Origin: Escherichia coli
GTDB taxonomy: Bacteria; Pseudomonadota; Gammaproteobacteria; Enterobacterales; Enterobacteriaceae
Direction: 5' to 3' (one strand)
Assembly (NCBI RefSeq): GCF_017348835.2
Contig: NZ_CP072315.1
DNA length: 64,000 nucleotides
A program made the translations under genes and the position numbers. Numbering within the stretch: the first letter of the stretch is position 1; each line of letters opens with the position of its first letter. Below, in pieces: positions 1 to 40,207 of the stretch. The notes under the pieces are model-generated. The model searched no databases. It was given only the letters and a program-made list of their open reading frames with translations, and had not been told where the DNA came from.

Positions 1-60
1 TGGACTCACCGCGCATCGAGCCGGATGTGTCGATAACAAGGTAAACAGGCAGGCGGCGCA

Positions 61-702
61 TCACATGTAATTCCTCAGGTGCGAGACAAACGAATCTGAT
101 TCTGAAGGCTCACCAATTGCCCTGAGTTTCCAGCCTGTAGCCTCGCGTATCAGCTCGGCAAAAACCATGGAGCGCTGGCTGGCGAAGGCGGGTCCGCCAG
201 AAAGATCGAATCGTGCCATTTCAATATTACGGGCATCTACTGCCCGGATGAAGGCATTCTGAACTTTACCAAAGTGCTGCTGGAGCTTTTCACCATTGTA
301 GATCTGAACGATGAACACAATTTTCTCGTACTGAGCGTCAAGGGAATTCAGGCGCACAATAATTTGCTCATCGTCACCATCACCGGCTCCGGTTCGGTTA
401 TCGCCCGTCAGCCAGATATTTCCTGACTTATGGCGAAGGCTGTTGAAAAAGATGATATCGCCATTCACAAGCGTTGGTTTACCATTTTCCACATTGCCGA
501 GATCGGTCACCTTTCCGGCTGAATTACACAGGAAAGCGATCACATCAAGGTCGTATTCTTCTTCTTTTTTACCAAAGATCCCGCCGAGGAAACCTTTCTT
601 TTCCTCATTAATATCCCAACCCAGGCCGATAGTAACGGACGAGAGATCGTATTCATTTTTTTTCAGGCTTACGCCCTGGCCTTTGCTCAGACTGACAGAC
701 AT
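61..702 (-). CDS. terX: TerD-family stress protein (TerX-like)
   Basis: 213-aa ORF with TerD-domain hallmarks (MSVSLSKG N-terminus, GDNRTGxGDGDDE motif) shared with the TerZ/TerD/TerE paralogs in this window; sits beside vWA TerY and TerW. Confidence 0.75.
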   Translation of the reverse strand: MSVSLSKGQGVSLKKNEYDLSSVTIGLGWDINEEKKGFLGGIFGKKEEEYDLDVIAFLCNSAGKVTDLGNVENGKPTLVNGDIIFFNSLRHKSGNIWLTGDNRTGAGDGDDEQIIVRLNSLDAQYEKIVFIVQIYNGEKLQQHFGKVQNAFIRAVDARNIEMARFDLSGGPAFASQRSMVFAELIREATGWKLRAIGEPSESDSFVSHLRNYM

Positions 703-724
703 GACATCCCCTTAATTAATAAAA

Positions 725-1444
725 TTATAAGACCACGTTTACTTCTGGCGGCGGCGGTGGCAGGTCTTCAAGACCGATCACTTCTTTTTTGCTGGACTCC
801 ACTTTCTGACTGCCTACCGAAATGCTCGCACTGACCCATTTAAAGAAAGCTTTAATCGTCGAACTGTCAGCTGTATCGAGCTGAACCACGATTTCAGTGA
901 TTTCTTTGAGGACGCTGGTATCGGCATCATGCCCGGCTGCACATGCCACAACAACGCCGGTTCTGGCCGCTTTAAAGTCATTCAGGCCTTTACGCCAGTC
1001 ATCATTCGGACTTCCATCCGTCATCAGGAATACAAGGGGACGCCAGTCACCTTTAGTGTCAGCCGTCGTTTTCTGTACTTCTTTGGCAATGGAGCTGGCC
1101 GTCAGGGTAAGCGCTTCGCCAAGAGAGGTGGTGCCGCTGGCTGTTAGTGCTGGCATCTGGAAACTCAGGAGGTCTGTCAGGGGGACTGCCTGTCGGGCTG
1201 AAGAATCAAAGGTGATCACTGACACGTAAGCCGTTTCGAGTGCATACGGATCCTGTTTCAGCGTGGTAAGCAGCGTCTGAACGCCATTCTTAACCGCTTC
1301 GATAGGCTCTCCGTGCATAGAGCCGGACGTGTCGAGTAGCAGATATACGGGTAAGCGTCTCAAATGTAATTCCTTCTTAAGAGATCGGAAGAGGAGAGTA
1401 GTTTCAGGAAGAGGCCAGAGTTTGTAGATTTGATAAAACGGCAC
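725..1444 (-). CDS. terY: von Willebrand factor A domain protein (TerY-like)
   Basis: 239-aa ORF with a MIDAS-like motif (LLLDTSGSM ... MTDG); the true start may be a downstream alternative codon. Confidence 0.75.
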   Translation of the reverse strand: MPFYQIYKLWPLPETTLLFRSLKKELHLRRLPVYLLLDTSGSMHGEPIEAVKNGVQTLLTTLKQDPYALETAYVSVITFDSSARQAVPLTDLLSFQMPALTASGTTSLGEALTLTASSIAKEVQKTTADTKGDWRPLVFLMTDGSPNDDWRKGLNDFKAARTGVVVACAAGHDADTSVLKEITEIVVQLDTADSSTIKAFFKWVSASISVGSQKVESSKKEVIGLEDLPPPPPEVNVVL

Positions 1445-1789
1445 GACATCTGTCGGGTGGAGATTAAATACTCAGAAGCGGCATTAAAGAAATAAGTTAA
1501 CCACCATTGAATTACCGACATGTGAATGGCCTCTTATCAGAGAAAAAAATTCAGACCGTACTGGAATATAAATTTCTGAAAAAAACTCCGGCAAAAATAA
1601 ACTTTCTTATGTATGAAAATCATCATACATCACAGATCTGCATGAATGGAGTGTAAATCGCCCAAAGATTGATGTGTAGCACAAGAGGATGTCAAGACAC
1701 CAGGTTTTGTAGGCAGAAAGGCGCTGCTGACATTGCGGGAGGAGAATAGATCAAAACTCCGTCACGCAGATACAGAGGTGAAATATGAC

Positions 1790-1814
1790 AAAACCGGGGT
1801 TTTCACCCCGGTCT
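1790..1814 (-). terminator. Putative intrinsic terminator downstream of terW
   Basis: Hairpin ACCGGGG/CCCCGGT followed by a short T-tract on the minus strand, immediately 3' of the terW stop. Confidence 0.4.
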
Positions 1815-1825
1815 GAGATTTAGCG

Positions 1826-2293
1826 TCAGGACTTTTTAGCGCTGTATTCTTTTATCAGTTCATCAACGGAGTGCAGAGCCAGCTTCTCTACCGCTTCACT
1901 TCGGGTCGAGCCACTCAGCGCAGCCAGACGGTCAATTTTTCTTAAAATCCGCATGCGTAGCGATAATGACACGGCTGTTTTTTTATCCTTATCGAGTACG
2001 ACCTTCCCTGTGGACTCACCGGTTTTCAGTTCAGCATTCTGTGCGAGCGCTTCATTCATCCGGCGAAGGGTCTTTTTATCCAGCTGGCCCGGATTAACGA
2101 GATGGTAGGAATGACCTGCCTTGCTGTATTTGATCTCCGCAGAATATGACTCGCGTAGCTCTTTGAGTGCCCGGGTTAATGTCGGCTCTGAGCATTCCAG
2201 ACTGGTTATAATGTCGGCAGCGGAAACGGGCTTGCCGGTGCCCAGTAAGTTGGCAAGCTTAAAAATCCGGGCCTGTCTGGTATTTAATTGCAT
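1826..2293 (-). CDS. terW: TerW-like regulatory protein
   Basis: 155-aa ORF; size and position between terY and the Ter-linked module match terW of ter islands. Confidence 0.65.
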   Translation of the reverse strand: MQLNTRQARIFKLANLLGTGKPVSAADIITSLECSEPTLTRALKELRESYSAEIKYSKAGHSYHLVNPGQLDKKTLRRMNEALAQNAELKTGESTGKVVLDKDKKTAVSLSLRMRILRKIDRLAALSGSTRSEAVEKLALHSVDELIKEYSAKKS

Positions 2294-2310
2294 CGTAAGA
2301 TTTAGCCTGC

Positions 2311-3519
2311 TTAAAGGGTTAGTGGTTCAATAGGCTGAAAAATGAAGGTACTGCTCATCTTTCGAATAACCGGGTGATCGCCTAACGCTTCAACCGGATC
2401 AATGTGTTCTAAGCCTGCAAAATTTACTGACGACATCTGGCTGCGACTGCATTTGCAGGACAGGATATACTCATCCTCCAGATAGCCGGTCCGCTTACTG
2501 ACCCGTTGCGTAAAGCCTGACACAATCACGTTGTCGAACGGTAGCGTATGTAAAACGATACCGACCAGGCGGAACAAGCAGCCATGGACGTGGCGGGCAT
2601 AGTTTTCGCGTACGGCTTTTTGCGTCATGGCTTTTTCCGTCAGCTCCGTGCCCCGGGCATTAACGCCGTAAATCTTATCAGGGAAATCTTCAATCTCAGC
2701 TAAATCAACATCCAGCAGGACTGCTGATAGCTCCGGCTTTACTTCAAATGCAACAAGCGTTTCACGCGGCCATTCAGTTTCTGCCAGCACACCCGCCAGG
2801 TATGATTCGAAAAACGCGGCGTCTGTCCGGAACTGCTGCCGGGCATCTGCCTGAGCCGTGGCGAGCCGTTTTTCATGTTCTTCAGCCTCAAACTTCCAGT
2901 TTGCATACTGTTCGGCCCAGGCCGTCCGTTGTTGCTGGTACCGGTGCTGTCGAAGGGTATTCTCACGCTCCACATCAATCAGCTCCTGCTGCCACCGGCG
3001 AAGATTTTCGGCGTGGCGCTCAGCTTTAGCTGATTCCGATTCAAACCATTTACCCAGAAAACTAATGCCTTCGCTCTCGGCAGGCTTTTCCGGCAATGCA
3101 AGATAGTCTGGCTTTTCTGGACGCACCGGTGCCGGAACCTGAAAAGGCGACGTTCTGTTATGCAGGTATACTGCTTCCAGCTCTGCCCAGCTGATGCCTG
3201 TTTTAGGATCCGGCGTCAGCTCGTGAATATTACGGATTGCGGTCACCGCTGACATGAGATCAGCGGCTTCCTCCTCAAGCGCCTGTCTGAGCCCCGGGTC
3301 GGTAGCCGTCCGGTTCCCACCTCCGGAACGCGCGGCCCGATCAAGCCGGGTACGGTAACTCAGCCCGGTACCGGGCAAGCCCAGATTGGCATAGGTCCCC
3401 CGGCTTCCAAAAGAAACGGAAGCACCTCTCGGCCCGACACTCAGGCTCGGTGCACCGTTACTCAGGTTGAGGCGAACACCAGGAATAATGTTGATCGACT
3501 TTCTGAATCTGAACCCCAT
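2311..3519 (-). CDS. Ter-associated protein with DUF4236-like N-terminus, function unknown
   Basis: 402-aa ORF co-directional and tightly packed with the module; glycine-rich N-terminal segment (GPRGASVSFGSRGTYANLGLPGTGLSYR). Confidence 0.55.
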   Translation of the reverse strand: MGFRFRKSINIIPGVRLNLSNGAPSLSVGPRGASVSFGSRGTYANLGLPGTGLSYRTRLDRAARSGGGNRTATDPGLRQALEEEAADLMSAVTAIRNIHELTPDPKTGISWAELEAVYLHNRTSPFQVPAPVRPEKPDYLALPEKPAESEGISFLGKWFESESAKAERHAENLRRWQQELIDVERENTLRQHRYQQQRTAWAEQYANWKFEAEEHEKRLATAQADARQQFRTDAAFFESYLAGVLAETEWPRETLVAFEVKPELSAVLLDVDLAEIEDFPDKIYGVNARGTELTEKAMTQKAVRENYARHVHGCLFRLVGIVLHTLPFDNVIVSGFTQRVSKRTGYLEDEYILSCKCSRSQMSSVNFAGLEHIDPVEALGDHPVIRKMSSTFIFQPIEPLTL

Positions 3520-3529
3520 TATGATTTCC

Positions 3530-4489
3530 TTAATGATGCTGGGTCACGGTAAGTAATCTGATTCCATCAGCGCTTTGCTCGTTCTGTAACCCATAAAAAC
3601 GAGCTCTGTCCAGAATGCCAGCCGCCCAGCGGCGATGTGTGGCGGGTTCACACATTGCTCCCTGCGACTTAAACACGGCCTGGGTAGAGTTCAGGATCCG
3701 CAGAGCGTCAGAATGCTCACCCTGAGTGACCATCAGCGCGTTTTGAATGACCTCTATCTGACCCGGGTGAATGGCCGTTTTCCCAACAAGCCCATGTGCC
3801 ATATCAAGAGCCAGCTCTCTGGCCATTACGGCATGATCGTCAATATGCTCACATACGGGCGCGGTCAGGGCAAAATCACGCGGGCCGAAGACCGAAACGA
3901 GCATTTTGATGACGTAGCCCATCGGGCTGTCATACAGCGTCAGGTCCCGGGGACGGCGAAGCGACACAACGTTCATAAGATCGTTGCCGCCGATTCGAAG
4001 CGCAATAATGCGGTCGTGGCAGGGATGTTCCACCAGACGGGTGGCCAGCTCCCGCATCTGAACCACGTCAAAGACGTCTTCTGTTTCCAGCGTTGGCATC
4101 ATGCACAGGTGAGTCCCGCCCATGATATCCCACCATTCAGCTAACGAACTGAGGGTAAATTTCGGCAACACAAACCCGTCGACAGCGGAAAGATCATAAT
4201 GCGCTTTTAACCATCTGCCCATTTCGGCATGCCGGGGGCGAATGAACACCAGAGGCCAGTCATTTTTACCCAGGCTATGCATGCTGTTACTGAGCTCGTG
4301 CAGCAGGTGCTCCAGATTTTTGAGGGCGACGGGGATGTCTGCTTCACTGACAGCATCCTCCAGGCAAATCACCAGAGAGCGCAAACCCGGGATTTTCCCG
4401 TGCAGGACGGCATCAGCAATATCTTCCCGTGTTGCAGGCATGTATAGCGTGGCTCCCAGATTCCAGGGAGAAAGACGATTTTTCATCAA
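3530..4489 (-). CDS. HpcH/HpaI aldolase / citrate-lyase beta-like (TIM-barrel) enzyme
   Basis: 319-aa ORF; start overlaps the upstream gene's stop (ATGA at 4486-4489), indicating translational coupling; fold assignment is from sequence similarity by eye. Confidence 0.6.
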   Translation of the reverse strand: MMKNRLSPWNLGATLYMPATREDIADAVLHGKIPGLRSLVICLEDAVSEADIPVALKNLEHLLHELSNSMHSLGKNDWPLVFIRPRHAEMGRWLKAHYDLSAVDGFVLPKFTLSSLAEWWDIMGGTHLCMMPTLETEDVFDVVQMRELATRLVEHPCHDRIIALRIGGNDLMNVVSLRRPRDLTLYDSPMGYVIKMLVSVFGPRDFALTAPVCEHIDDHAVMARELALDMAHGLVGKTAIHPGQIEVIQNALMVTQGEHSDALRILNSTQAVFKSQGAMCEPATHRRWAAGILDRARFYGLQNEQSADGIRLLTVTQHH

Positions 4490-5565
4490 AGTACCTTCTT
4501 GATAATGGTTACAGCCCGATACTGGCCGAGGGTTCCCCCCATTTCTGTAACAACTATTCCCTTTTCACGAGCAAGCCCTACAAGCAAGGCAACGTCCGAG
4601 TCGTCAATAGAACGCACAAATACATGGTCCGGTACCCGACGTAATACAGCCCGGGTTGCTTCAGCAATACCGGGTTTTATACGATTGACGCTGTCCACTT
4701 TAAATTCATCGGCCAGGAACGCGATAACGTCGCGACTTGTCTGCCATAAGACCCGGGCTGACTCCGTATTCCAGCTCAGGGGAGCGAGGGATGACGGGGT
4801 TAACTTCTTACGGAAATGAGCGACGGTATCGACAAGCATCCGGCTGCATTCGAATTCACTGAGATGCTCGCAAACCATGCACCCGTGTAATCCTTCAGAG
4901 GACCACACTGACCGGGAGATCAGGCCTGACACCGGCGCACCCATGATGCCAAAAGGAATGAGCCAGTCATCATCACTGGCTGCAAGCCAGGAGCAGCCAC
5001 AGGGATCGGCCAGGACAACCAGTCGCGGCTGCTCAGGATAGCCCGGGCGATCTTTCAGTGCGCGTACAAGCTCTCCGGTAATTGCGCCTTTACCTGTCCA
5101 TCCGTCAACAAAGACAATACCGCTGGTACCATGCCGCTCTTCAATGACGTCGAGGGCTGCACCGTCAATTCCACGATCCCGGATAATGCTGATACCGTAA
5201 TGCCATGAGGTTTTCCCCATGTCACGCAGGGCCTGGTGCAGCATAACGCCGAGCGGCACGCCAGCCCTGACAAGACTGGCCAGTACAATGGGCTCATCAC
5301 CAAAGCGTTTGGCCAGAGCAATAGCGAGCTGTGTGACTTCTTTTGCAAGTCTCTCTGCGCCCCGATCCAGCGCCCGGTGAAACAAATCAAGATGCCATTG
5401 TGTTGGCGCTGGCTCCTGACTGAGCATGTCCGAATAATGTTTCTTCCCTGACTGAATCAGCTCTTCTTTTTGCTCAACCGGCGTCATCTCAATGACAACC
5501 GGCTTTAGCAGAAATTCCACGTCACCGGGCTGGTATGAGCCGGTAAATGTGTCATGTGGCTGCAT
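4486..5565 (-). CDS. Phosphoribosyltransferase-like protein (divergent)
   Basis: ATG at 5565 preceded by a GGAGAA ribosome-binding site and placed 1 nt after the HAD stop; degenerate PRTase-like motif IVFVDGWTGKGAITG. Confidence 0.55.
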   Translation of the reverse strand: MQPHDTFTGSYQPGDVEFLLKPVVIEMTPVEQKEELIQSGKKHYSDMLSQEPAPTQWHLDLFHRALDRGAERLAKEVTQLAIALAKRFGDEPIVLASLVRAGVPLGVMLHQALRDMGKTSWHYGISIIRDRGIDGAALDVIEERHGTSGIVFVDGWTGKGAITGELVRALKDRPGYPEQPRLVVLADPCGCSWLAASDDDWLIPFGIMGAPVSGLISRSVWSSEGLHGCMVCEHLSEFECSRMLVDTVAHFRKKLTPSSLAPLSWNTESARVLWQTSRDVIAFLADEFKVDSVNRIKPGIAEATRAVLRRVPDHVFVRSIDDSDVALLVGLAREKGIVVTEMGGTLGQYRAVTIIKKVL

Positions 5566-34652: not shown

Positions 34653-34690
34653 GGGGAGCCCGCAGAATTCGGAAAAAATCGTACGCTAAG
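34653..34690 (+). repeat. Tn1721-type 38-bp terminal inverted repeat (IRR-like)
   Basis: GGGGAGCCCGCAGAATTCGGAAAAAATCGTACGCTAAG. Confidence 0.85.
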
Positions 34691-35360
34691 GTTTTCCGGG
34701 CATCCGTAAGGGCCGAAACTTCCCGTCTTCCAGTCTGCGGCTCTGCCGCCAGACGTAATCGCCGGTTAGGTTGATGTGCTCCCAGCCCAGCGGCGACAGG
34801 AATTGCAGCAGCTCGCCGTCCACCGGCTTGCCGGCCTCGACCAACCCCTGGGTGGCGCGTTCCAGGTACACCGTGTTCCACAGCACGATAGCCGCCGTCA
34901 CCAGGTTGAGGCCGCTGGCCCGGTAGCGCTGCTGCTCGAAGCTCCGATCCCTGATTTCCCCAAGGCGGTTGAAGAACACCGCCCTGGCCAGCGAGTTGCG
35001 CGCCTCACCTTTGTTCAGGCCGGCATGCACGCGGCGGCGCAGTTCAACACTTTGCAGCCAGTCCAGGATGAACAGCGTGCGCTCGATCCGGCCCAGCTCG
35101 CGCAGGGCCACGGCCAGTCCGTTCTGGCGCGGGTAGCTGCCGAGCTTGCGCAGCATCAGCGAGGCGGTGACGGTGCCCTGCTTGATCGAGCTGGCCAGGC
35201 GCAGGATGTCGTCCCAGTGGGCACGCACGTGCTTGATGTTCAGGGTGCCGCCGATCAGCGGGCGCAACGTCGGGTAGGCTTGCACGCCCTGCGGCACGTA
35301 CAGCTTGGTTTCGCCGAGGTCGCGGATGCGCGGCGCGAAGCGGAAGCCTAGCAGGTGCAT
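34686..35360 (-). pseudogene. tnpA: 3' fragment of a Tn21-subgroup (Tn1721-type) transposase gene
   Basis: 224-aa ORF ending inside the 38-bp inverted repeat with Tn3-family transposase C-terminal character; fragment continues to the Tn3 repeat junction near 35400. Confidence 0.7.
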
Positions 35361-35402
35361 CAGGGCAAAGACGTGATCGGTGAAGCCGGCCGTGTCGGTG
35401 TA

Positions 35403-35440
35403 GGGGTCTGACGCTCAGTGGAACGAAAACTCACGTTAAG
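35403..35440 (+). repeat. Tn3 38-bp terminal inverted repeat
   Basis: GGGGTCTGACGCTCAGTGGAACGAAAACTCACGTTAAG. Confidence 0.9.
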
Positions 35441-36738
35441 CAACGTTTTCTGCCTCTGACGCCTCTTTTAATGGTCTCAGATGTCCTTTGGTCACCAGTT
35501 CTGCCAGCGTGAAGGAATAATGGCCGAGCATATTGATATGTCCGTGGCAAAGCGGGGAGAGGCGTGCGATATCTTCATCATTCAGTGTTTCACCCTGCGC
35601 CCGGAGATGATCCAGGGCTGCCTGCATATAAATAGTGTTCCATAACACGACGGCGTTAGTGACCAGCCCCAGTGTGCCCAGTTGATCTTCCTGACCGTCG
35701 GTATATCGTTTTCTTATCTCACCTTTTTGACCGTGACAGATGGCTCTGGCAACGGCATGGCGACTTTCTCCCCGATTAAGCTGGGTCAGAATGCGCCGGC
35801 GGTAATCTTCATCATCAATATAATTAAGCAGATACAGCGTTTTGTTGATGCGCCCCACTTCAATGATTGCCTGAGTCAGTCCGGAAGGACGTTCACTTTT
35901 CAGCAATGAACGGACCAGCACTGAAACCTGTACTTTGCCCAGCTTCAGGGAGCCAGCGGTCCGGATCATTTCGTCCCACTGAAGGACTATTTTTCGGGGA
36001 TCTGATTGCCCTCTGGCAATATCATTCAGCACGCCATAGTCGGCATCATGGTCCATTCGCCAGAAAACCGAAGCACCGGCATCAGCCAGGCGTGGAGAAA
36101 ACTGGTATCCCAGCAGCCAGAAAAGGCCAAAGACAAGTTCGCTGGCACCTGCTGTATCGGTCATAATTTCGGTTGGATTCAGCCCGGTCTCCTGTTCCAG
36201 AAGACCTTCCAGCACAAAGATAGAGTCCCTCAGCGTCCCCGGTATAACGATGCCATGAAAGCCGGAATACTGATCGGACACAAAGTTGTACCAGGTGATC
36301 CCTCTGTTATTACCAAAGTATTTGCGGTTCGGTCCGGCATTGATTGTTCTGACTGGCGTAACAAAGCGCATTCCATCTGCAGATGCCACTTCTCCTCCAC
36401 CCCATATCTGTGCCAGTGGCAGCGTTGCCTGAAAATCAACCAGTCTGGCATTAGCGCTGGTGATAGTTTCAGCCCGCAGATAGTTCGCTTTTGTCCAGTT
36501 CAGCCGGTGTCGGGTCAGTGCAGGAACATTTGATCTGATCAGTGGTTCCAGACCGATATTGCAGGCTTCAGCCATCAGCACGGCGCTGATGCTGACGGGC
36601 AGATCATCAACTCTGGCACTGGCTTCACTAGCATGGAAAAACTCATCAGCAAATCCGGTATGGGCGTTAATTTCGAGCAGCAACTCCGTTAAATCCACCG
36701 GAGGGAGTAGATCACTGATCATTTTGCTCAGTCGTTTC
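35436..36738 (-). pseudogene. tnpA: Tn3 transposase gene, 3' portion, truncated by IS26
   Basis: About 430 C-terminal residues of Tn3-type TnpA (…RLSKMISDLLPPVDLTELLLEINAHTGF… to …HLRPLKEASEAENVA); the track ORF's start codon lies inside IS26. Confidence 0.85.
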
Positions 36739-37557
36739 GGCACTGTTGCAAATAGTCGGTGGTGATAAACTTATCATCCCCTTTTGCTGATGGAGCTGCA
36801 CATGAACCCATTCAAAGGCCGGCATTTTCAGCGTGACATCATTCTGTGGGCCGTACGCTGGTACTGCAAATACGGCATCAGTTACCGTGAGCTGCAGGAG
36901 ATGCTGGCTGAACGCGGAGTGAATGTCGATCACTCCACGATTTACCGCTGGGTTCAGCGTTATGCGCCTGAAATGGAAAAACGGCTGCGCTGGTACTGGC
37001 GTAACCCTTCCGATCTTTGCCCGTGGCACATGGATGAAACCTACGTGAAGGTCAATGGCCGCTGGGCGTATCTGTACCGGGCCGTCGACAGCCGGGGCCG
37101 CACTGTCGATTTTTATCTCTCCTCCCGTCGTAACAGCAAAGCTGCATACCGGTTTCTGGGTAAAATCCTCAACAACGTGAAGAAGTGGCAGATCCCACGA
37201 TCCTCAACACGGATAAAGCGCCCGCCTATGGTCGCGCGCTTGCTCTGCTCAAACGCGAAGGCCGGTGCCCGTCTGACGTTGAACACCGACAGATTAAGTA
37301 CCGGAACAACGTGATTGAATGCGATCATGGCAAACTGAAACGGATAATCAACGCCACGCTGGGATTTAAATCCATGAAGACGGCTTACGCCACCATCAAA
37401 GGTATTGAGGTGATGCGTGCACTACGCAAAGGCCAGGCCTCAGCATTTTATTATGGTGATCCCCTGGGCGAAATGCGCCTGGTAAGCAGAGTTTTTGAAA
37501 TGTAAGGCCTTTGAATAAGACAAAAGGCTGCCTCATCGCTAACTTTGCAACAGTGCC
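36739..37557 (+). mobile_element. IS26 copy 1 (819 bp, transposase frameshifted)
   Basis: 14-bp ends GGCACTGTTGCAAA / TTTGCAACAGTGCC; 1 bp shorter than the other copies from a change near 37198 (CCCACGATCCTCAACACGG versus CCCACGATTCATCAACACGG in other copies); no 8-bp target duplication. Confidence 0.9.
36802..37505 (+). pseudogene. tnp26: IS26 transposase gene, frameshifted
   Basis: Reading frame splits into track ORFs 36784..37314 and 37185..37505; protein diverges after KKWQIPR. Confidence 0.85.
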
Positions 37558-37680
37558 GCCCCAGCAGCATCTCCAGCTGTGAACGCTGTTCGGCTGACGG
37601 TATCAGTGCCAGTTTGTTCCACAGGCGCAACGTCGCCTTTTCCCTTACCTCTGAAATCAACCGGGTCAGCGTAGTGGCTC
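37558..37680 (-). pseudogene. tnpA: Internal fragment of Tn3 transposase gene
   Basis: Encodes …ISEVREKATLRLWNKLALIPSAEQRSQLEMLLG, an internal TnpA segment not contiguous with the 3' fragment on the other side of IS26; right boundary approximate. Confidence 0.6.
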
Positions 37681-37707
37681 CGGGGAGAATAATAGTCTAT
37701 CCCGGCA

Positions 37708-38085
37708 TTGCCAGTCGGGGATATTAAAAAGAGTATAGGTTTTTATTGCGATAAACTAGGTTTCACTTTGGTTCACCATGAAGATGGATTCGCAGTTCTA
37801 ATGTGTAATGAGGTTCGGATTCATCTATGGGAGGCAAGTGATGAAGGCTGGCGCTCTCGTAGTAATGATTCACCGGTTTGTACAGGTGCGGAGTCGTTTA
37901 TTGCTGGTACTGCTAGTTGCCGCATTGAAGTAGAGGGAATTGATGAATTATATCAACATATTAAGCCTTTGGGCATTTTGCACCCCAATACATCATTAAA
38001 AGATCAGTGGTGGGATGAACGAGACTTTGCAGTAATTGATCCCGACAACAATTTGATTAGCTTTTTTCAACAAATAAAAAGCTAA
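37708..38085 (+). CDS. bleO: Bleomycin-binding protein, Gram-positive (pUB110-type) BleO-like
   Basis: 125 aa from TTG at 37708; sequence PVGDIKKSIGFYCDKLGFTLVHHEDGFAVLMCNEVRIHLWEASDEGW… matches the pUB110 bleomycin-resistance protein as I recall it; an in-frame stop upstream suggests the native N-terminus is missing. Confidence 0.7.
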   Translation: MPVGDIKKSIGFYCDKLGFTLVHHEDGFAVLMCNEVRIHLWEASDEGWRSRSNDSPVCTGAESFIAGTASCRIEVEGIDELYQHIKPLGILHPNTSLKDQWWDERDFAVIDPDNNLISFFQQIKS

Positions 38086-38404
38086 AATCTATTATTAATC
38101 TGTTCAGCAATCGGGCGCGATTGCTGAATAAAAGATACGAGAGACCTCTCTTGTATCTTTTTTATTTTGAGTGGTTTTGTCCGTTACACTAGAAAACCGA
38201 AAGACAATAAAAATTTTATTCTTGCTGAGTCTGGCTTTCGGTAAGCTAGACAAAACGGACAAAATAAAAATCTAAATATGCTTGAACAACTTGTAACTTA
38301 AATTCATAACTGTATTTTGCCATAAAAAATGACCTCCCATAAGTTAGATTTTTGGTCTAACTTATGGGGGTCAGTTCATTCTACACTTGGGCTGCATGTT
38401 TTGA

Positions 38405-38797
38405 TTAATTATCTAATATCTCCGGATCTCCTGTAAAGGAATATAAAACTGCCTGCATGTTTTTCAAATAAAATACGGTGAATTTCCCATCATCAGCGCT
38501 ATACCAATCTCTCAAATGCGGATTTGCTTCAAGCATTGCTTCCCTTGCTTCCACGGTATCATCAATTACGGCTTCGCCGGTGAGCCGAATCCATTTTCCT
38601 TTTGCCATACCTGAGACTTCCACCTTTGAATTTGCCAATAACTGCTGATAAACTTTTTTCTGATTGGTTGTACCAAGATAGACCTTGCCATTCCTCTCCA
38701 TGGCTGCATTAAACGGTCTGACCCTTGGCTGGTCTCCTTCAACGGTTGCAAAATAAAAAGTTTTTGCTTCATTTAAAAAATCAACAACTTGACTCAT
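38405..38797 (-). CDS. Pyridoxamine 5'-phosphate oxidase-like (flavin-binding split-barrel) protein
   Basis: 130-aa ORF in an AT-rich, Gram-positive-like segment; fold assignment tentative. Confidence 0.5.
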   Translation of the reverse strand: MSQVVDFLNEAKTFYFATVEGDQPRVRPFNAAMERNGKVYLGTTNQKKVYQQLLANSKVEVSGMAKGKWIRLTGEAVIDDTVEAREAMLEANPHLRDWYSADDGKFTVFYLKNMQAVLYSFTGDPEILDN

Positions 38798-39079
38798 CCT
38801 TTTTTACCTCCATAAATAAATTTTTCTTTACTTTTCTTTGACCTAAATTCCACGTGCATTTTTTATTAGCTTAAAAGAACACTATTTCACGAAGAATTTA
38901 AACTGATACTCCCACATTGTAACATTATTTACCACCACCTTTCAATCTTTTTCAATAAATTATTGATTGCAACTTTTGAGTAAAGATACTTATTAAACCC
39001 TGCAAGTTATCCACAGAGCAACACTCGATTTTCAAGATGATATCTTTATTACACCAGACATTTTTCATACACTTCCTTG

Positions 39080-39899
39080 GGCACTGTTGCAAAGTTAGCG
39101 ATGAGGCAGCCTTTTGTCTTATTCAAAGGCCTTACATTTCAAAAACTCTGCTTACCAGGCGCATTTCGCCCAGGGGATCACCATAATAAAATGCTGAGGC
39201 CTGGCCTTTGCGTAGTGCACGCATCACCTCAATACCTTTGATGGTGGCGTAAGCCGTCTTCATGGATTTAAATCCCAGCGTGGCGTTGATTATCCGTTTC
39301 AGTTTGCCATGATCGCATTCAATCACGTTGTTCCGGTACTTAATCTGTCGGTGTTCAACGTCAGACGGGCACCGGCCTTCGCGTTTGAGCAGAGCAAGCG
39401 CGCGACCATAGGCGGGCGCTTTATCCGTGTTGATGAATCGTGGGATCTGCCACTTCTTCACGTTGTTGAGGATTTTACCCAGAAACCGGTATGCAGCTTT
39501 GCTGTTACGACGGGAGGAGAGATAAAAATCGACAGTGCGGCCCCGGCTGTCGACGGCCCGGTACAGATACGCCCAGCGGCCATTGACCTTCACGTAGGTT
39601 TCATCCATGTGCCACGGGCAAAGATCGGAAGGGTTACGCCAGTACCAGCGCAGCCGTTTTTCCATTTCAGGCGCATAACGCTGAACCCAGCGGTAAATCG
39701 TGGAGTGATCGACATTCACTCCGCGTTCAGCCAGCATCTCCTGCAGCTCACGGTAACTGATGCCGTATTTGCAGTACCAGCGTACGGCCCACAGAATGAT
39801 GTCACGCTGAAAATGCCGGCCTTTGAATGGGTTCATGTGCAGCTCCATCAGCAAAAGGGGATGATAAGTTTATCACCACCGACTATTTGCAACAGTGCC
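39080..39899 (-). mobile_element. IS26 copy 2 (820 bp)
   Basis: Both 14-bp ends present; abuts a 5'-truncated IS26 in the opposite orientation at 39900. Confidence 0.9.
39132..39836 (-). CDS. tnp26: IS26 transposase Tnp26 (Asn at position 184)
   Basis: 234 aa from [12 protein letters not shown]; contains KRIINATLG. Confidence 0.9.
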   Translation of the reverse strand: MNPFKGRHFQRDIILWAVRWYCKYGISYRELQEMLAERGVNVDHSTIYRWVQRYAPEMEKRLRWYWRNPSDLCPWHMDETYVKVNGRWAYLYRAVDSRGRTVDFYLSSRRNSKAAYRFLGKILNNVKKWQIPRFINTDKAPAYGRALALLKREGRCPSDVEHRQIKYRNNVIECDHGKLKRIINATLGFKSMKTAYATIKGIEVMRALRKGQASAFYYGDPLGEMRLVSRVFEM

Positions 39900-40207
39900 C
39901 AAACGCGAAGGCCGGTGCCCGTCTGACGTTGAACACCGACAGATTAAGTACCGGAACAACGTGATTGAATGCGATCATGGCAAACTGAAACGGATAATCG
40001 GCGCCACGCTGGGATTTAAATCCATGAAGACGGCTTACGCCACCATCAAAGGTATTGAGGTGATGCGTGCACTACGCAAAGGCCAGGCCTCAGCATTTTA
40101 TTATGGTGATCCCCTGGGCGAAATGCGCCTGGTAAGCAGAGTTTTTGAAATGTAAGGCCTTTGAATAAGACAAAAGGCTGCCTCATCGCTAACTTTGCAA
40201 CAGTGCC
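39900..40207 (+). mobile_element. Partial IS26 (3' terminal 308 bp)
   Basis: Encodes the C-terminal about 80 aa of Tnp26 with Gly at position 184 (KRIIGATLG); ends with TTTGCAACAGTGCC. Confidence 0.85.

What the first reader, a model, noticed from the sequence alone, without database searches (positions are those of the whole stretch)
37681..39079. Gram-positive-type bleO plus a flavin-binding-like gene trapped between inversely oriented IS26 copies
The 125-aa protein matches, from memory, the pUB110 bleomycin-binding protein but appears to lack its native first residues (in-frame stop at 37693, TTG start). The neighbouring 130-aa gene and AT-rich flanks look Gram-positive in character. This points to capture of Firmicutes plasmid DNA by IS26-family elements, which are related to IS257/IS431.
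Basis: partly seen in the sequence, partly recalled or inferred. Interest (0 to 1): 0.45.

Follow-up and report, generated by a model that had tools for sequence, protein, structure and literature searches.

The report
Truncated bleO relic of ISEnca1 transposition
This is a well-known 1.4-kb scrap of Gram-positive DNA found on hundreds of livestock-associated E. coli and Salmonella resistance plasmids: a start-less bleomycin-resistance gene from the staphylococcal plasmid pUB110 plus a small flavoprotein-like gene from gut clostridia, brought in by an ISEcp1-like insertion sequence (ISEnca1) and only later cut by IS26.

Summary
Window 37694-38271 is 100% identical (578/578) to pUB110 and carries bleO without its first four codons, with TAA and TAG stops directly upstream. 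A 130-aa PNPOx-family gene lies at 38405-38797 (-). The block has 36.7% GC and sits between inversely oriented IS26 copies.

IS26 did not capture this DNA. The block is a mosaic:
- a pUB110 fragment;
- 19 codons of an IS3-family transposase gene plus the PNPOx gene, 99% identical to a Ruminococcaceae contig;
- the last 238 bp of ISEnca1, an IS1380-family element about 94% identical to ISEcp1.

The left edge joins the middle of Tn2 tnpA, not an IS26 end. Three Salmonella plasmids keep the whole ISEnca1, and its IRL abuts the rest of Tn2 tnpA. Removing the unit and one TAATA copy restores intact tnpA. So the block is the passenger part of an ISEcp1-style ISEnca1 transposition unit that landed in Tn2. 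IS26 then inserted into ISEnca1 (8-bp duplication CTTCCTTG) and trimmed it.

The module (ΔTn2-IS26-ble-orf-ΔISEnca1-IS26) has been described since pOLA52. bleO is probably silent. The PNPOx gene keeps the ISEcp1-type outward promoter. The finding is already known and of low interest.

The parts
35403..36738 (-). Tn2/Tn3-type transposon relic: the 38-bp terminal inverted repeat (35403-35440) and the C-terminal part of tnpA (435-aa ORF 35436-36743), cut by IS26.
   Evidence: Perfect 38/38 match to the Tn3 IR. The ORF translation ends ...KEASEAENVA. The stretch is 100% identical to pTB422 and 99.9% to pOLA52.
36739..37557 (+). IS26 copy of 819 bp. A T>C change and a 1-nt deletion at 37202/37203 split tnp26 into 176-aa and 106-aa ORFs.
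   Evidence: Terminal repeats GGCACTGTTGCAAA at both ends. Alignment to the second copy. ORFs listed. The flanking 8-mers differ (GTCGTTTC and GCCCCAGC), so there is no target duplication.
37558..37693 (-). Internal fragment of Tn2/Tn3 tnpA encoding ...IILPGATTLTRLISEVREKATLRLWNKLALIPSAEQRSQLEMLLG. This is the target DNA on one side of the ISEnca1 unit.
   Evidence: Translation. Joined to the DNA beyond the ISEnca1 IRL in L061, it matches intact Tn3-family transposase genes at 100% in a single piece; 4116 records have one place covering at least 80% of the 276-nt query.
37690..37694 (.). Left copy of the TAATA target-site duplication. TAAT is certain; the final A could equally be the first pUB110 base.
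   Evidence: The window reads GAGAATAAT|AGTCT. L061 reads ...GAATCTCAG|TAATACGATG beyond the ISEnca1 IRL. Uninterrupted tnpA reads GAGAATAATACGATG.
37694..38271 (+). pUB110 fragment (nt 1972-1395 of NC_001384.1). It holds bleO lacking codons 1-4 (remnant 37696-38085), the bleO terminator hairpin (38130-38161) and the DNA just upstream of mobV.
   Evidence: 578/578 identity. NF000027 at 297.9 bits, profile positions 10-134. Terminator-like site. About 290 Enterococcus plasmids match 38113-38271, which lies upstream of mobV in the two Gram-positive loci examined.
38272..38330 (-). First 19 codons (MAKYSYEFKLQVVQAYLD...) of an IS3-family orfA-type transposase gene, cut off at the junction with pUB110.
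   Evidence: Colinear with Ruminococcaceae bacterium AM07-15 (L007), where the ORF continues to 131 aa and hits Pfam HTH_28 and HTH_Tnp_1. The junction sequence ATTTAGA matches 6 of the 7 outermost bases of the ISEnca1 IRR; only 4 of 1574 donor positions score as well.
38405..38797 (-). Intact 130-aa gene of the PNPOx / FMN-binding split-barrel family, called orf63 or nimC in the literature. A hairpin follows it at 38336-38368.
   Evidence: Pfam PF01243 at 39.7 bits. PDB 2IG6 at E = 3e-36. 564/572 nt identical to L007. Closest homologs are all Clostridia.
38842..39079 (-). Right end of ISEnca1 (IS1380 family). The IRR ACGTGGAATTTAGG ends at 38842 and the outward promoter TTGAAA-18-TACAAT lies at 38945-38916. 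IS26 cuts the element at 39079/39080.
   Evidence: 99.6% identical to annotated ISEnca1 in L006. Promoter-like site with the same hexamers and spacer as the ISEcp1 promoter (PMC9330008). ISEnca1 is about 94% identical to ISEcp1.
39080..39899 (-). IS26, 820 bp with intact tnp26 (Asn184 form), inserted in ISEnca1.
   Evidence: 240-aa ORF. Same insertion point as in L061, where the 8-bp duplication CTTCCTTG flanks it.
39900..40207 (+). Partial IS26 (positions about 513-820) abutting the full copy. It carries GG at 40000-40001 (Gly184 form).
   Evidence: Alignment; terminal-repeat positions.

Best explanation
The 1.4-kb AT-rich block is the trimmed remnant of one ISEnca1 transposition unit of the ISEcp1 type. 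ISEnca1 is an IS1380-family element about 94% identical to ISEcp1. Like ISEcp1, it can move together with DNA downstream of its right end (IRR), because the transposase uses a surrogate right end further along.

Inferred history:
1. ISEnca1 sat upstream of a PNPOx-family gene in a gut Firmicute, with an IS3-family element downstream. This placement is shown.
2. The unit (ISEnca1, the PNPOx gene and 19 codons of the IS3-family orfA) moved into a pUB110-type plasmid just upstream of mobV. This step is inferred from the IRR-like ATTTAGA at the junction.
3. A longer unit that read through 578 bp of pUB110, as far as codon 5 of bleO, transposed into tnpA of Tn2 on an enterobacterial plasmid. The insertion, with a TAATA duplication and a restorable empty site, is shown; that transposition took place in an enterobacterial host is inferred.
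4. One IS26 inserted inside ISEnca1. This is shown by the 8-bp duplication in pF18S044-1. Another IS26 entered Tn2 tnpA and deleted about 1 kb of it.
5. IS26-mediated rearrangements then removed the rest of ISEnca1 in the pOLA52 lineage and in this window.

Functional reading:
- bleO has lost its GTG start, its first four codons, its ribosome-binding site and its native upstream DNA. It is most likely a silent passenger, which annotation pipelines nevertheless report as bleO.
- The PNPOx gene is intact. It still lies 119 bp (from the -10 hexamer to the ATG) downstream of the ISEcp1-type promoter retained in the ISEnca1 stump, so it is probably transcribed in E. coli.
- Inverted IS26 copies cannot excise the block as an IS26 translocatable unit. 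It travels as a hitch-hiker on IS26-rich resistance regions, classically next to Tn6010 (oqxAB).
For: **Identity of the segments.** pUB110 578/578. Ruminococcaceae contig 564/572, covering 38270-38841. ISEnca1 end 99.6%, with IRR ACGTGGAATTTAGG at 38842-38855.

**Insertion in Tn2.**
- The left edge is inside Tn2 tnpA.
- Three Salmonella plasmids have the complete 1655-bp ISEnca1, with its IRL directly abutting the N-terminal part of Tn2 tnpA, then tnpR and blaTEM-1. They are CP082383.2, CP082444.1 and NZ_CP030182.1.
- Joining the window's left flank to the DNA beyond the IRL, minus one TAAT(A), gives an open tnpA frame. That sequence is 100% identical in a single piece to intact Tn3-family transposase genes; 4116 records have one place covering at least 80% of the query.

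**Order of events.** The IS26 inside ISEnca1 is flanked by CTTCCTTG on both sides in L061, and the window has the same IS26 junction.

**Single origin.** Gram-negative records share the Tn2::bleO junction, while staphylococcal matches start four bases later. No Gram-positive record listed among the spread rows spans the pUB110/IS3 junction.

**Internal junction.** It coincides with ATTTAGA, which matches 6 of the 7 outer IRR bases; 4 of 1574 donor positions do as well.

**Consistency with ISEcp1 behaviour.** ISEcp1 units use poorly matching surrogate IRRs and make 5-bp AT-rich repeats, including TAATA (PMC6061673).

**Expression signals.** The promoter TTGAAA-18-TACAAT at 38945-38916 equals the published ISEcp1 promoter (PMC9330008). 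No promoter-like site lies upstream of bleO on the + strand.

**Prior description.** The module is described in the literature as ΔTn2-IS26-ble/blmS-orf-ΔISEnca1-IS26 (PMC5645526; PMC7823714; PMC6387526).
Against: - The surrogate right end at the bleO edge matches the IRR at only 4-5 of 14 positions, no better than about a quarter of pUB110 positions.
- The IRL of this ISEnca1 copy reads CTGAGATTCTACGT, two bases off the published CCTAGATTCTACGT. It could not be checked in an independent insertion, because all three records derive from the same event.
- The fifth base of the duplication is ambiguous with pUB110.
- Steps 1-2 are inferred. No record with the unit inside pUB110 was found in the rows inspected.
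- The Ruminococcaceae contig carries its own 33-bp ISEnca1-like IRR remnant, 32 bp further upstream. That contig is therefore not a clean progenitor.
- bleO silence is inferred from sequence only. PGAP annotates a 128-aa CDS from ATC 37699, and read-through from tnp26 of the upstream IS26 is possible.
Confidence: 0.8

Rival explanations
1. IS26, or its Gram-positive relatives IS257/IS1216, formed a cointegrate with a Firmicutes plasmid and carried the segment into Enterobacteriaceae. The two inverted IS26 copies mark the capture boundaries.
For: pUB110 is typically bracketed by IS257 in staphylococci. In E. faecium pE211-2 the PNPOx segment is bracketed by IS1216 and ISEnfa1. IS26 family members form cointegrates (PMC6952201). 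IS26 copies flank the block in the window.
Against: - The foreign DNA does not reach the left IS26: 136 bp of Tn2 tnpA intervene, and the junction is Tn2::bleO.
- The right IS26 sits inside ISEnca1 with its own 8-bp duplication.
- The block contains no IS257/IS1216 terminal repeat.
- The E. coli version extends 16 bp beyond the IS1216 cut seen in Enterococcus, so it does not derive from that form.
- The 8-mers flanking the IS26 copies do not match.
Confidence: 0.05
2. The mosaic was assembled by illegitimate or microhomology-mediated recombination in a Gram-positive host, for example at the 2-nt AT overlap at 38270-38271. ISEnca1 then moved it only once, from that host's DNA into Tn2. In this view only the final hop, not the internal junction, is ISEnca1-mediated.
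For: A 2-nt overlap at the pUB110/IS3 junction. No intermediate with the unit inserted in pUB110 was found in the rows inspected. The overall IRR match at that junction is only 6 of 14.
Against: The junction coincides with ATTTAGA, the outer part of the IRR. Only 0.25% of donor positions match as well. Stepwise growth of transposition units is the established behaviour of the closely related ISEcp1.
Confidence: 0.15
3. The bleO remnant is a working bleomycin-resistance gene in Enterobacteriaceae, translated from ATC 37699 or TTG 37708 and transcribed by read-through from IS26. On this reading, its wide distribution reflects selection.
For: - 95% of the coding sequence is intact at 100% identity.
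- PGAP and AMRFinder call it bleO.
- It is present in 166 of 5426 complete E. coli genomes.
- With an ATC start, the residue aligned to Sh Ble Pro9 is kept.
Against: - No ATG or GTG start, and no Shine-Dalgarno sequence at a useful distance from TTG 37708.
- Two in-frame stops lie directly upstream.
- No promoter-like site upstream, and a terminator-like hairpin at 37623-37638.
- The N-terminal strand that bleomycin-binding proteins exchange between subunits is missing. This rests on my knowledge of the Sh Ble and BLMA structures, not on a test here.
- The near-identity of all copies reflects recent spread on IS26-rich plasmids next to oqxAB and similar genes, not selection on bleO.
Confidence: 0.2

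Closest known systems
The pOLA52-type module ΔTn2-IS26-ble(blmS)-orf63/nimC-ΔISEnca1-IS26, upstream of Tn6010 (oqxAB). It is also present in pHXY0908, pHNSHP45-2, pHNYJC8 and many IncHI2, IncF, IncX1 and IncR plasmids.
   Same: 99.9% identical to pOLA52 over 4.5 kb (window 35401-39899) and 100% identical to pTB422 over 5.2 kb. The junctions, IS26 positions and gene order are the same. Described in PMC5645526, PMC7823714 and PMC6387526.
   Different: - In this window the right-hand IS26 is followed by a partial IS26 and the sul1/orf5 end of a class 1 integron, not by oqxAB.
- The left IS26 carries a frameshift, shared with pTB422.
- The PNPOx protein has His94 instead of Pro94.
ISEcp1 transposition units, for example ISEcp1-blaCTX-M and ISEcp1-blaCMY-2.
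   Same: - An IS1380-family element about 94% identical to ISEcp1, with the same IRR.
- The same outward promoter, TTGAAA-18-TACAAT.
- Passenger DNA downstream of the IRR, with a poorly matching surrogate right end.
- A 5-bp AT-rich duplication (TAATA).
- Stepwise pick-up of DNA from successive hosts.
   Different: - The element is ISEnca1, first found in Enterococcus.
- The passengers are Gram-positive DNA with no proven resistance function.
- The IS itself has since been destroyed by IS26.
pUB110 ble (BleO) as found in S. aureus/Bacillus plasmids and in SCCmec type II.
   Same: Identical DNA over 578 bp, including the terminator and the DNA upstream of mobV.
   Different: It lacks the GTG start, codons 1-4, the ribosome-binding site, aadD and all upstream DNA. 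It is not flanked by IS257/IS431.
Nim 5-nitroimidazole reductases (NimA to NimJ) and other small PNPOx-like split-barrel flavoproteins.
   Same: A Pfam PNPOx_N fold family member of small size, matching PDB 2IG6, which was deposited as 'NimC/NimA family protein'.
   Different: No match to any other PDB chain carrying a Nim name at E ≤ 10 (2IG6 is the only such hit), and no NCBIfam resistance model. The 'nimC' label is annotation only.

Membership tests
BleO (pUB110-type bleomycin-binding protein) | Sequence match to the curated BleO model above its cut-off | tested here: met
   NF000027 at 297.9 bits against a cut-off of 275. DNA is 578/578 identical to pUB110.
BleO (pUB110-type bleomycin-binding protein) | Full-length gene with its native start codon and N-terminus (134 aa, GTG start) | tested here: not met
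   The alignment covers profile positions 10-134 from the TTG start. Identity with pUB110 begins in codon 5, and TAA and TAG stops lie at 37690-37695.
BleO (pUB110-type bleomycin-binding protein) | Confers bleomycin/phleomycin resistance by sequestering the drug | not testable with these tools
   Needs an MIC measurement with the cloned fragment. Sequence signals argue against expression.
ISEcp1-type (IS1380-family) transposition unit | An IS1380-family element with its IRL at one end and passenger DNA downstream of its IRR | tested here: met
   In the window only the IRR-side 238 bp remain (38842-39079). The complete 1655-bp ISEnca1 with its IRL is present in L061, L063 and L064 in the same context. 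The transposase hits Pfam DDE_Tnp_1_4.
ISEcp1-type (IS1380-family) transposition unit | A short AT-rich target duplication flanking the IRL and the distal end, with the empty site restorable | tested here: met
   TAAT(A) on both sides. The reconstructed site is an open tnpA frame, 100% identical in a single piece to intact Tn3-family tnpA; 4116 records have one place covering at least 80% of the query.
ISEcp1-type (IS1380-family) transposition unit | The distal end resembles the IRR (a surrogate IRR) | tested here: inconclusive
   4-5 of 14 at the bleO end, which is not distinctive. At the inner pUB110/IS3 junction, 6 of the 7 outer bases match, as at only 4 of 1574 positions. Published ISEcp1 surrogate ends are also weak matches.
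IS26 pseudo-compound transposon / translocatable unit | Two IS26 copies in direct orientation bounding the segment | tested here: not met
   The copies at 36739-37557 (+) and 39080-39899 (-) are inverted.
IS26 pseudo-compound transposon / translocatable unit | A matching 8-bp target duplication outside the pair or around each IS26 | tested here: not met
   The flanks are GTCGTTTC/GCCCCAGC and CTTCCTTG/CAAACGCG.
Nim (5-nitroimidazole reductase) family | PNPOx-like split-barrel domain | tested here: met
   PF01243 at 39.7 bits against a cut-off of 28.1.
Nim (5-nitroimidazole reductase) family | Detectable sequence relationship to Nim proteins | tested here: not met
   The only PDB hit below E = 0.01 is the structural-genomics entry 2IG6. 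No other Nim-named chain appears at E ≤ 10, and no NCBIfam model matches apart from a sub-threshold TIGR03618 hit.
Nim (5-nitroimidazole reductase) family | Reduces or inactivates nitroimidazoles | not testable with these tools
   Needs MIC measurements and an enzyme assay.

The most novel reading that the evidence does not exclude
The real cargo of this widespread module may be the small PNPOx-family flavoprotein, not bleO. It is the only intact gene and the one wired to the strong ISEcp1-type promoter. It was mobilised from gut Clostridia by ISEnca1. It might reduce or detoxify nitro-heterocyclic or quinoxaline-di-N-oxide feed additives (nitroimidazoles, carbadox, olaquindox). That would explain its persistent linkage to oqxAB on livestock plasmids, the variation at codon 94 (His, Pro or Leu), and the fact that all 8 differences from the Ruminococcaceae copy are non-synonymous.
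Probability: 0.08. Interest if true: 0.55.

Novelty: already known. Interest (0 to 1): 0.15.

Why it matters
This matters mainly as a clarification.

1. The 'bleO' that AMRFinder and PGAP report on hundreds of E. coli, Salmonella and Klebsiella plasmids is a start-less remnant from one ancestral event. It occurs in about 3% of complete E. coli genomes. It should not be counted as a functional bleomycin-resistance determinant without testing.

2. The module is a concrete, datable example of Gram-positive DNA reaching Enterobacteriaceae on an ISEcp1-like element. ISEnca1 is about 94% identical to ISEcp1, and the DNA came from both a staphylococcal plasmid and gut Clostridia. This is relevant to where ISEcp1 came from and to how IS1380-family elements ferry genes across phyla.

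3. It shows IS26 acting as a late editor rather than as the capturing agent.

Tried and rejected
- **GAGAAT microhomology.** I considered a shared GAGAAT between pUB110 (GTGAGAATGTTAC) and the window (GGGAGAATAAT) as a recombination microhomology. Rejected: the window's GAGAATAAT is simply Tn2 tnpA sequence.
- **IS1216 remnant.** I looked for a degenerate IS1216/IS257 end at 38272-38287, where E. faecium pE211-2 has IS1216. There is no convincing match. The 16 bp are instead colinear with the IS3-family orfA of the Ruminococcaceae contig.
- **Independent ISEnca1 IRL.** I tried to confirm the IRL and the duplication length from an independent insertion. All three records with this IRL share the same Tn2 context, so this was not possible.
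- **Clean progenitor of the PNPOx gene.** A scan of species-representative genomes gave a best hit of 95% aa identity in Ruminococcaceae bacterium AM07-15, but that copy is itself next to IS remnants. The next best hit is only 69%.
- **Gram-positive intermediate.** No Gram-positive plasmid listed (a spread sample of 881 matching records) carries the pUB110/PNPOx junction.
- **pOLA52 paper.** Norman et al. 2008 is not held in the library, nor is the Partridge 2018 review.
- **Not run.** I did not run structure prediction. Pfam and PDB sequence matches were enough for fold assignment.
Full report
**What is at the coordinates**

The window around 35.4-40.2 kb reads, from left to right:
- a Tn3-type 38-bp terminal repeat (35403-35440) and the C-terminal part of tnpA on the minus strand;
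- an IS26 copy at 36739-37557, in + orientation;
- 136 bp of GC-rich DNA (37558-37693);
- an AT-rich block (37694-39079, 36.7% GC against 51.2% for the window);
- a second IS26 at 39080-39899 in the opposite orientation;
- a partial IS26 (39900-40207);
- then the orf5/sul1 end of a class 1 integron.

One is a 125-aa ORF from TTG 37708 to 38085. The other is a 130-aa ORF at 38405-38797 on the minus strand.

**The bleO half**

The 125-aa product scores 297.9 bits against NCBIfam NF000027 (BleO, cut-off 275) and aligns to positions 10-134 of the 134-residue profile. At the DNA level, 37694-38271 is 578/578 identical to pUB110 (NC_001384.1 nt 1972-1395). It is equally identical to an IS257-flanked pUB110 copy in a Staphylococcus warneri plasmid.

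pUB110 bleO starts GTG AGA ATG TTA CAG TCT ATC. In the window, identity begins at the second base of codon 5, and the frame upstream reads GAA TAA TAG. The native start, the first four codons, the ribosome-binding site and everything upstream (aadD, rep) are therefore absent.

The pUB110 piece continues past bleO through its terminator hairpin (38130-38161). It stops at 38271, in the DNA just upstream of mobV. About 290 Enterococcus plasmids share 38113-38271, which lies upstream of mobV in the two Gram-positive loci examined.

**The other half**

The 130-aa protein is a PNPOx / FMN-binding split-barrel family member. It hits Pfam PF01243 at 39.7 bits (cut-off 28.1). It matches PDB 2IG6, a Clostridium structural-genomics entry deposited as 'NimC/NimA family protein', at E = 3e-36. 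It matches no other PDB chain carrying a Nim name, even at E ≤ 10, and no NCBIfam resistance model. The 'nimC' label used in the literature is therefore nominal.

Window 38288-39079 is 99.6% identical to E. faecium plasmid pE211-2, where the segment lies between IS1216 and ISEnfa1. A scan of species-representative genomes found relatives only in Clostridia. The best hit is a 202-kb contig of Ruminococcaceae bacterium AM07-15, at 95% aa identity. Its DNA is 564/572 identical to window 38270-38841.

That alignment shows that 38272-38330 (minus strand) is the first 19 codons of an IS3-family orfA-type gene. In the Ruminococcaceae contig the ORF is 131 aa and hits HTH_28 and HTH_Tnp_1.

Window 38842-39079 is the right end of ISEnca1, an IS1380-family element about 94% identical to ISEcp1. 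Its IRR, ACGTGGAATTTAGG, is the same as that of ISEcp1. The stump retains TTGAAA-18 nt-TACAAT at 38945-38916, which are the hexamers and spacer of the characterised ISEcp1 outward promoter (PMC9330008).

**How the block got there**

The 136 bp between the left IS26 and bleO encode, on the minus strand...IILPGATTLTRLISEVREKATLRLWNKLALIPSAEQRSQLEMLLG. This is an internal piece of Tn2/Tn3 TnpA. The foreign DNA is therefore joined to the middle of tnpA, not to an IS26 end.

A chimeric query (PNPOx gene plus more ISEnca1) found Salmonella plasmid pF18S044-1 (CP082383.2). In that plasmid, bleO and the PNPOx gene are followed by IS26 and then by the rest of ISEnca1. That IS26 is flanked by the 8-bp duplication CTTCCTTG, and the window has the identical IS26/ISEnca1 junction. 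So the right-hand IS26 is a later simple insertion into ISEnca1.

Beyond the ISEnca1 IRL, the Salmonella plasmid continues TAATACGATGTTGCATAAGCC... This is the N-terminal part of Tn2 tnpA, followed by tnpR and blaTEM-1. Two further Salmonella plasmids show the same arrangement.

I joined the window's left flank (...GAGAATAAT) to that sequence, minus one copy of TAAT. The result is an uninterrupted TnpA reading frame. It is 100% identical, in a single piece, to intact Tn3-family transposase genes; 4116 plasmid records have one place covering at least 80% of the 276-nt query.

The duplication can be read as the 5-bp TAATA, because the A at 37694 is shared with pUB110. That is the length and AT-rich character reported for ISEcp1 units (PMC6061673). 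The unit is ISEnca1 (1655 bp) plus about 1.15 kb of passenger DNA. It therefore inserted into Tn2 as an ISEcp1-style transposition unit.

Gram-negative records share the Tn2::bleO junction, whereas staphylococcal matches begin four bases later. This points to one ancestral event.

**The inner junction**

The pUB110/IS3 junction at 38270-38272 has a 2-nt overlap. It coincides with ATTTAGA, which matches 6 of the 7 outermost IRR bases. Only 4 of 1574 positions in the donor sequence match as well.

This fits an earlier, shorter ISEnca1 unit that landed in a pUB110-type plasmid and later 'read through' to a new surrogate end inside bleO. ISEcp1 units are known to grow in this way. The step is inferred: no Gram-positive record listed among the rows shown contains the junction. 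The surrogate end at the bleO edge is not distinctive (4-5 of 14), although published ISEcp1 surrogate ends are also weak matches.

**Role of IS26**

- The left IS26 lacks a target duplication (GTCGTTTC against GCCCCAGC). It separates tnpA codon about 218 from codon about 567, which is the signature of an insertion followed by an adjacent deletion.
- The two IS26 copies are inverted. The block is therefore not an IS26 pseudo-compound transposon and cannot leave as a translocatable unit.
- In one Salmonella plasmid (L064) the bleO-PNPOx segment is inverted relative to the ISEnca1 remainder. This shows IS26-driven rearrangement at work.

**Function**

bleO:
- It has no ATG or GTG start.
- TTG 37708 has no Shine-Dalgarno sequence.
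- The ATC at 37699 that PGAP uses to call a 128-aa CDS is a rare initiator.
- No promoter-like site precedes the gene on the + strand, and a terminator-like hairpin lies at 37623-37638.
- The residues aligned to the N-terminal arm of Sh Ble are partly or wholly missing. In solved bleomycin-binding proteins this arm is exchanged between subunits. That point rests on my knowledge of the Sh Ble and BLMA structures and was not tested here.

I infer that bleO is most likely silent or non-functional (about 0.75 to 0.8).

The PNPOx gene is intact and sits behind the retained ISEcp1-type promoter, so it is probably expressed. Its substrate is unknown.

**What is already known**

The module is 99.9% identical to pOLA52 over 4.5 kb and 100% identical to pTB422 over 5.2 kb. 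It covers at least 80% of the query in 384 plasmid records and in 166 of 5426 complete E. coli genomes.

Published descriptions give the structure as ΔTn2-IS26-ble/blmS-orf(63)/nimC-ΔISEnca1-IS26, upstream of Tn6010 (oqxAB) (PMC5645526; PMC7823714; PMC6387526). Many papers simply list 'bleO' among resistance genes (for example).

The best matches to the wider window (27000-51000) are large E. coli and Salmonella resistance plasmids of about 144-289 kb.

**Verdict**

The origin is confirmed and refined: pUB110, plus a gene from gut Clostridia, plus ISEnca1. The capture mechanism is corrected to an ISEnca1 transposition unit in Tn2, later trimmed by IS26. The feature is already known, and interest is low. 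Its practical value is the caution that enterobacterial 'bleO' calls refer to a start-less relic.

Noticed in passing
window 37202-37203 (IS26 copy 36739-37557): This IS26 is 819 bp. A T>C change plus a 1-nt deletion splits tnp26 into 176-aa and 106-aa ORFs. The same lesion is in pTB422, which is 100% identical over 34653-39899, so it is probably real rather than an assembly error.
   Followed up: partly
window 39900-40207: A partial IS26 (3' 308 bp) directly abuts the outer end of the full IS26 at 39080-39899. It carries GG at 40000-40001 (Gly184 in Tnp26), whereas the full copies here have AA (Asn184). Two IS26 variants therefore coexist.
   Followed up: partly
window 38516-38518 (codon 94 of the PNPOx gene); L002, L005, L007: Codon 94 is His here and in pTB422, Pro in pOLA52 and E. 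faecium pE211-2, and Leu in the Ruminococcaceae contig. All 8 nucleotide differences between the window gene and the Ruminococcaceae copy are non-synonymous.
   Followed up: no
L007 2892-2956: The Ruminococcaceae contig has only the last 33 bp of an ISEnca1-like element (IRR ACATGGAATTTAGG). It interrupts an ATPase-like ORF and lies 32 bp further upstream of the PNPOx gene than the ISEnca1 end in the window. This suggests either a second independent insertion or a deletion.
   Followed up: no
L006 2795-3501; L060 7882-8600: In E. coli plasmids (one a tet(X) plasmid), the ISEnca1 IRR also abuts an MBL-fold metallo-hydrolase gene about 58 bp away. This looks like a second gene mobilised by the same IS in Enterobacteriaceae.
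   Followed up: no
window 38113-38271: The retained pUB110 DNA includes the palindromic region upstream of mobV (ACCGAAAG...CTTTCGGT). This probably lies in or near the MOBV oriT/RSA site. It is 100% identical in about 290 Enterococcus plasmids and in Lactococcus, Ligilactobacillus and Mammaliicoccus plasmids. I did not examine whether the breakpoint at 38271 relates to the nick site.
   Followed up: no
L062 2600-2986 (= window 37699-38085): RefSeq/PGAP annotates the truncated bleO as an intact 128-aa CDS (WP_063102497.1) starting at ATC. AMRFinder reports it at 100% identity. This is why it appears routinely in resistance-gene lists.
   Followed up: yes
L064 (CP082444.1) 1-5300: In this Salmonella Johannesburg plasmid the bleO-PNPOx segment is inverted and separated by ISVsa5 from the rest of ISEnca1-ΔTn2-blaTEM-1. 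This is consistent with an IS26-mediated inversion of the same ancestral structure.
   Followed up: partly
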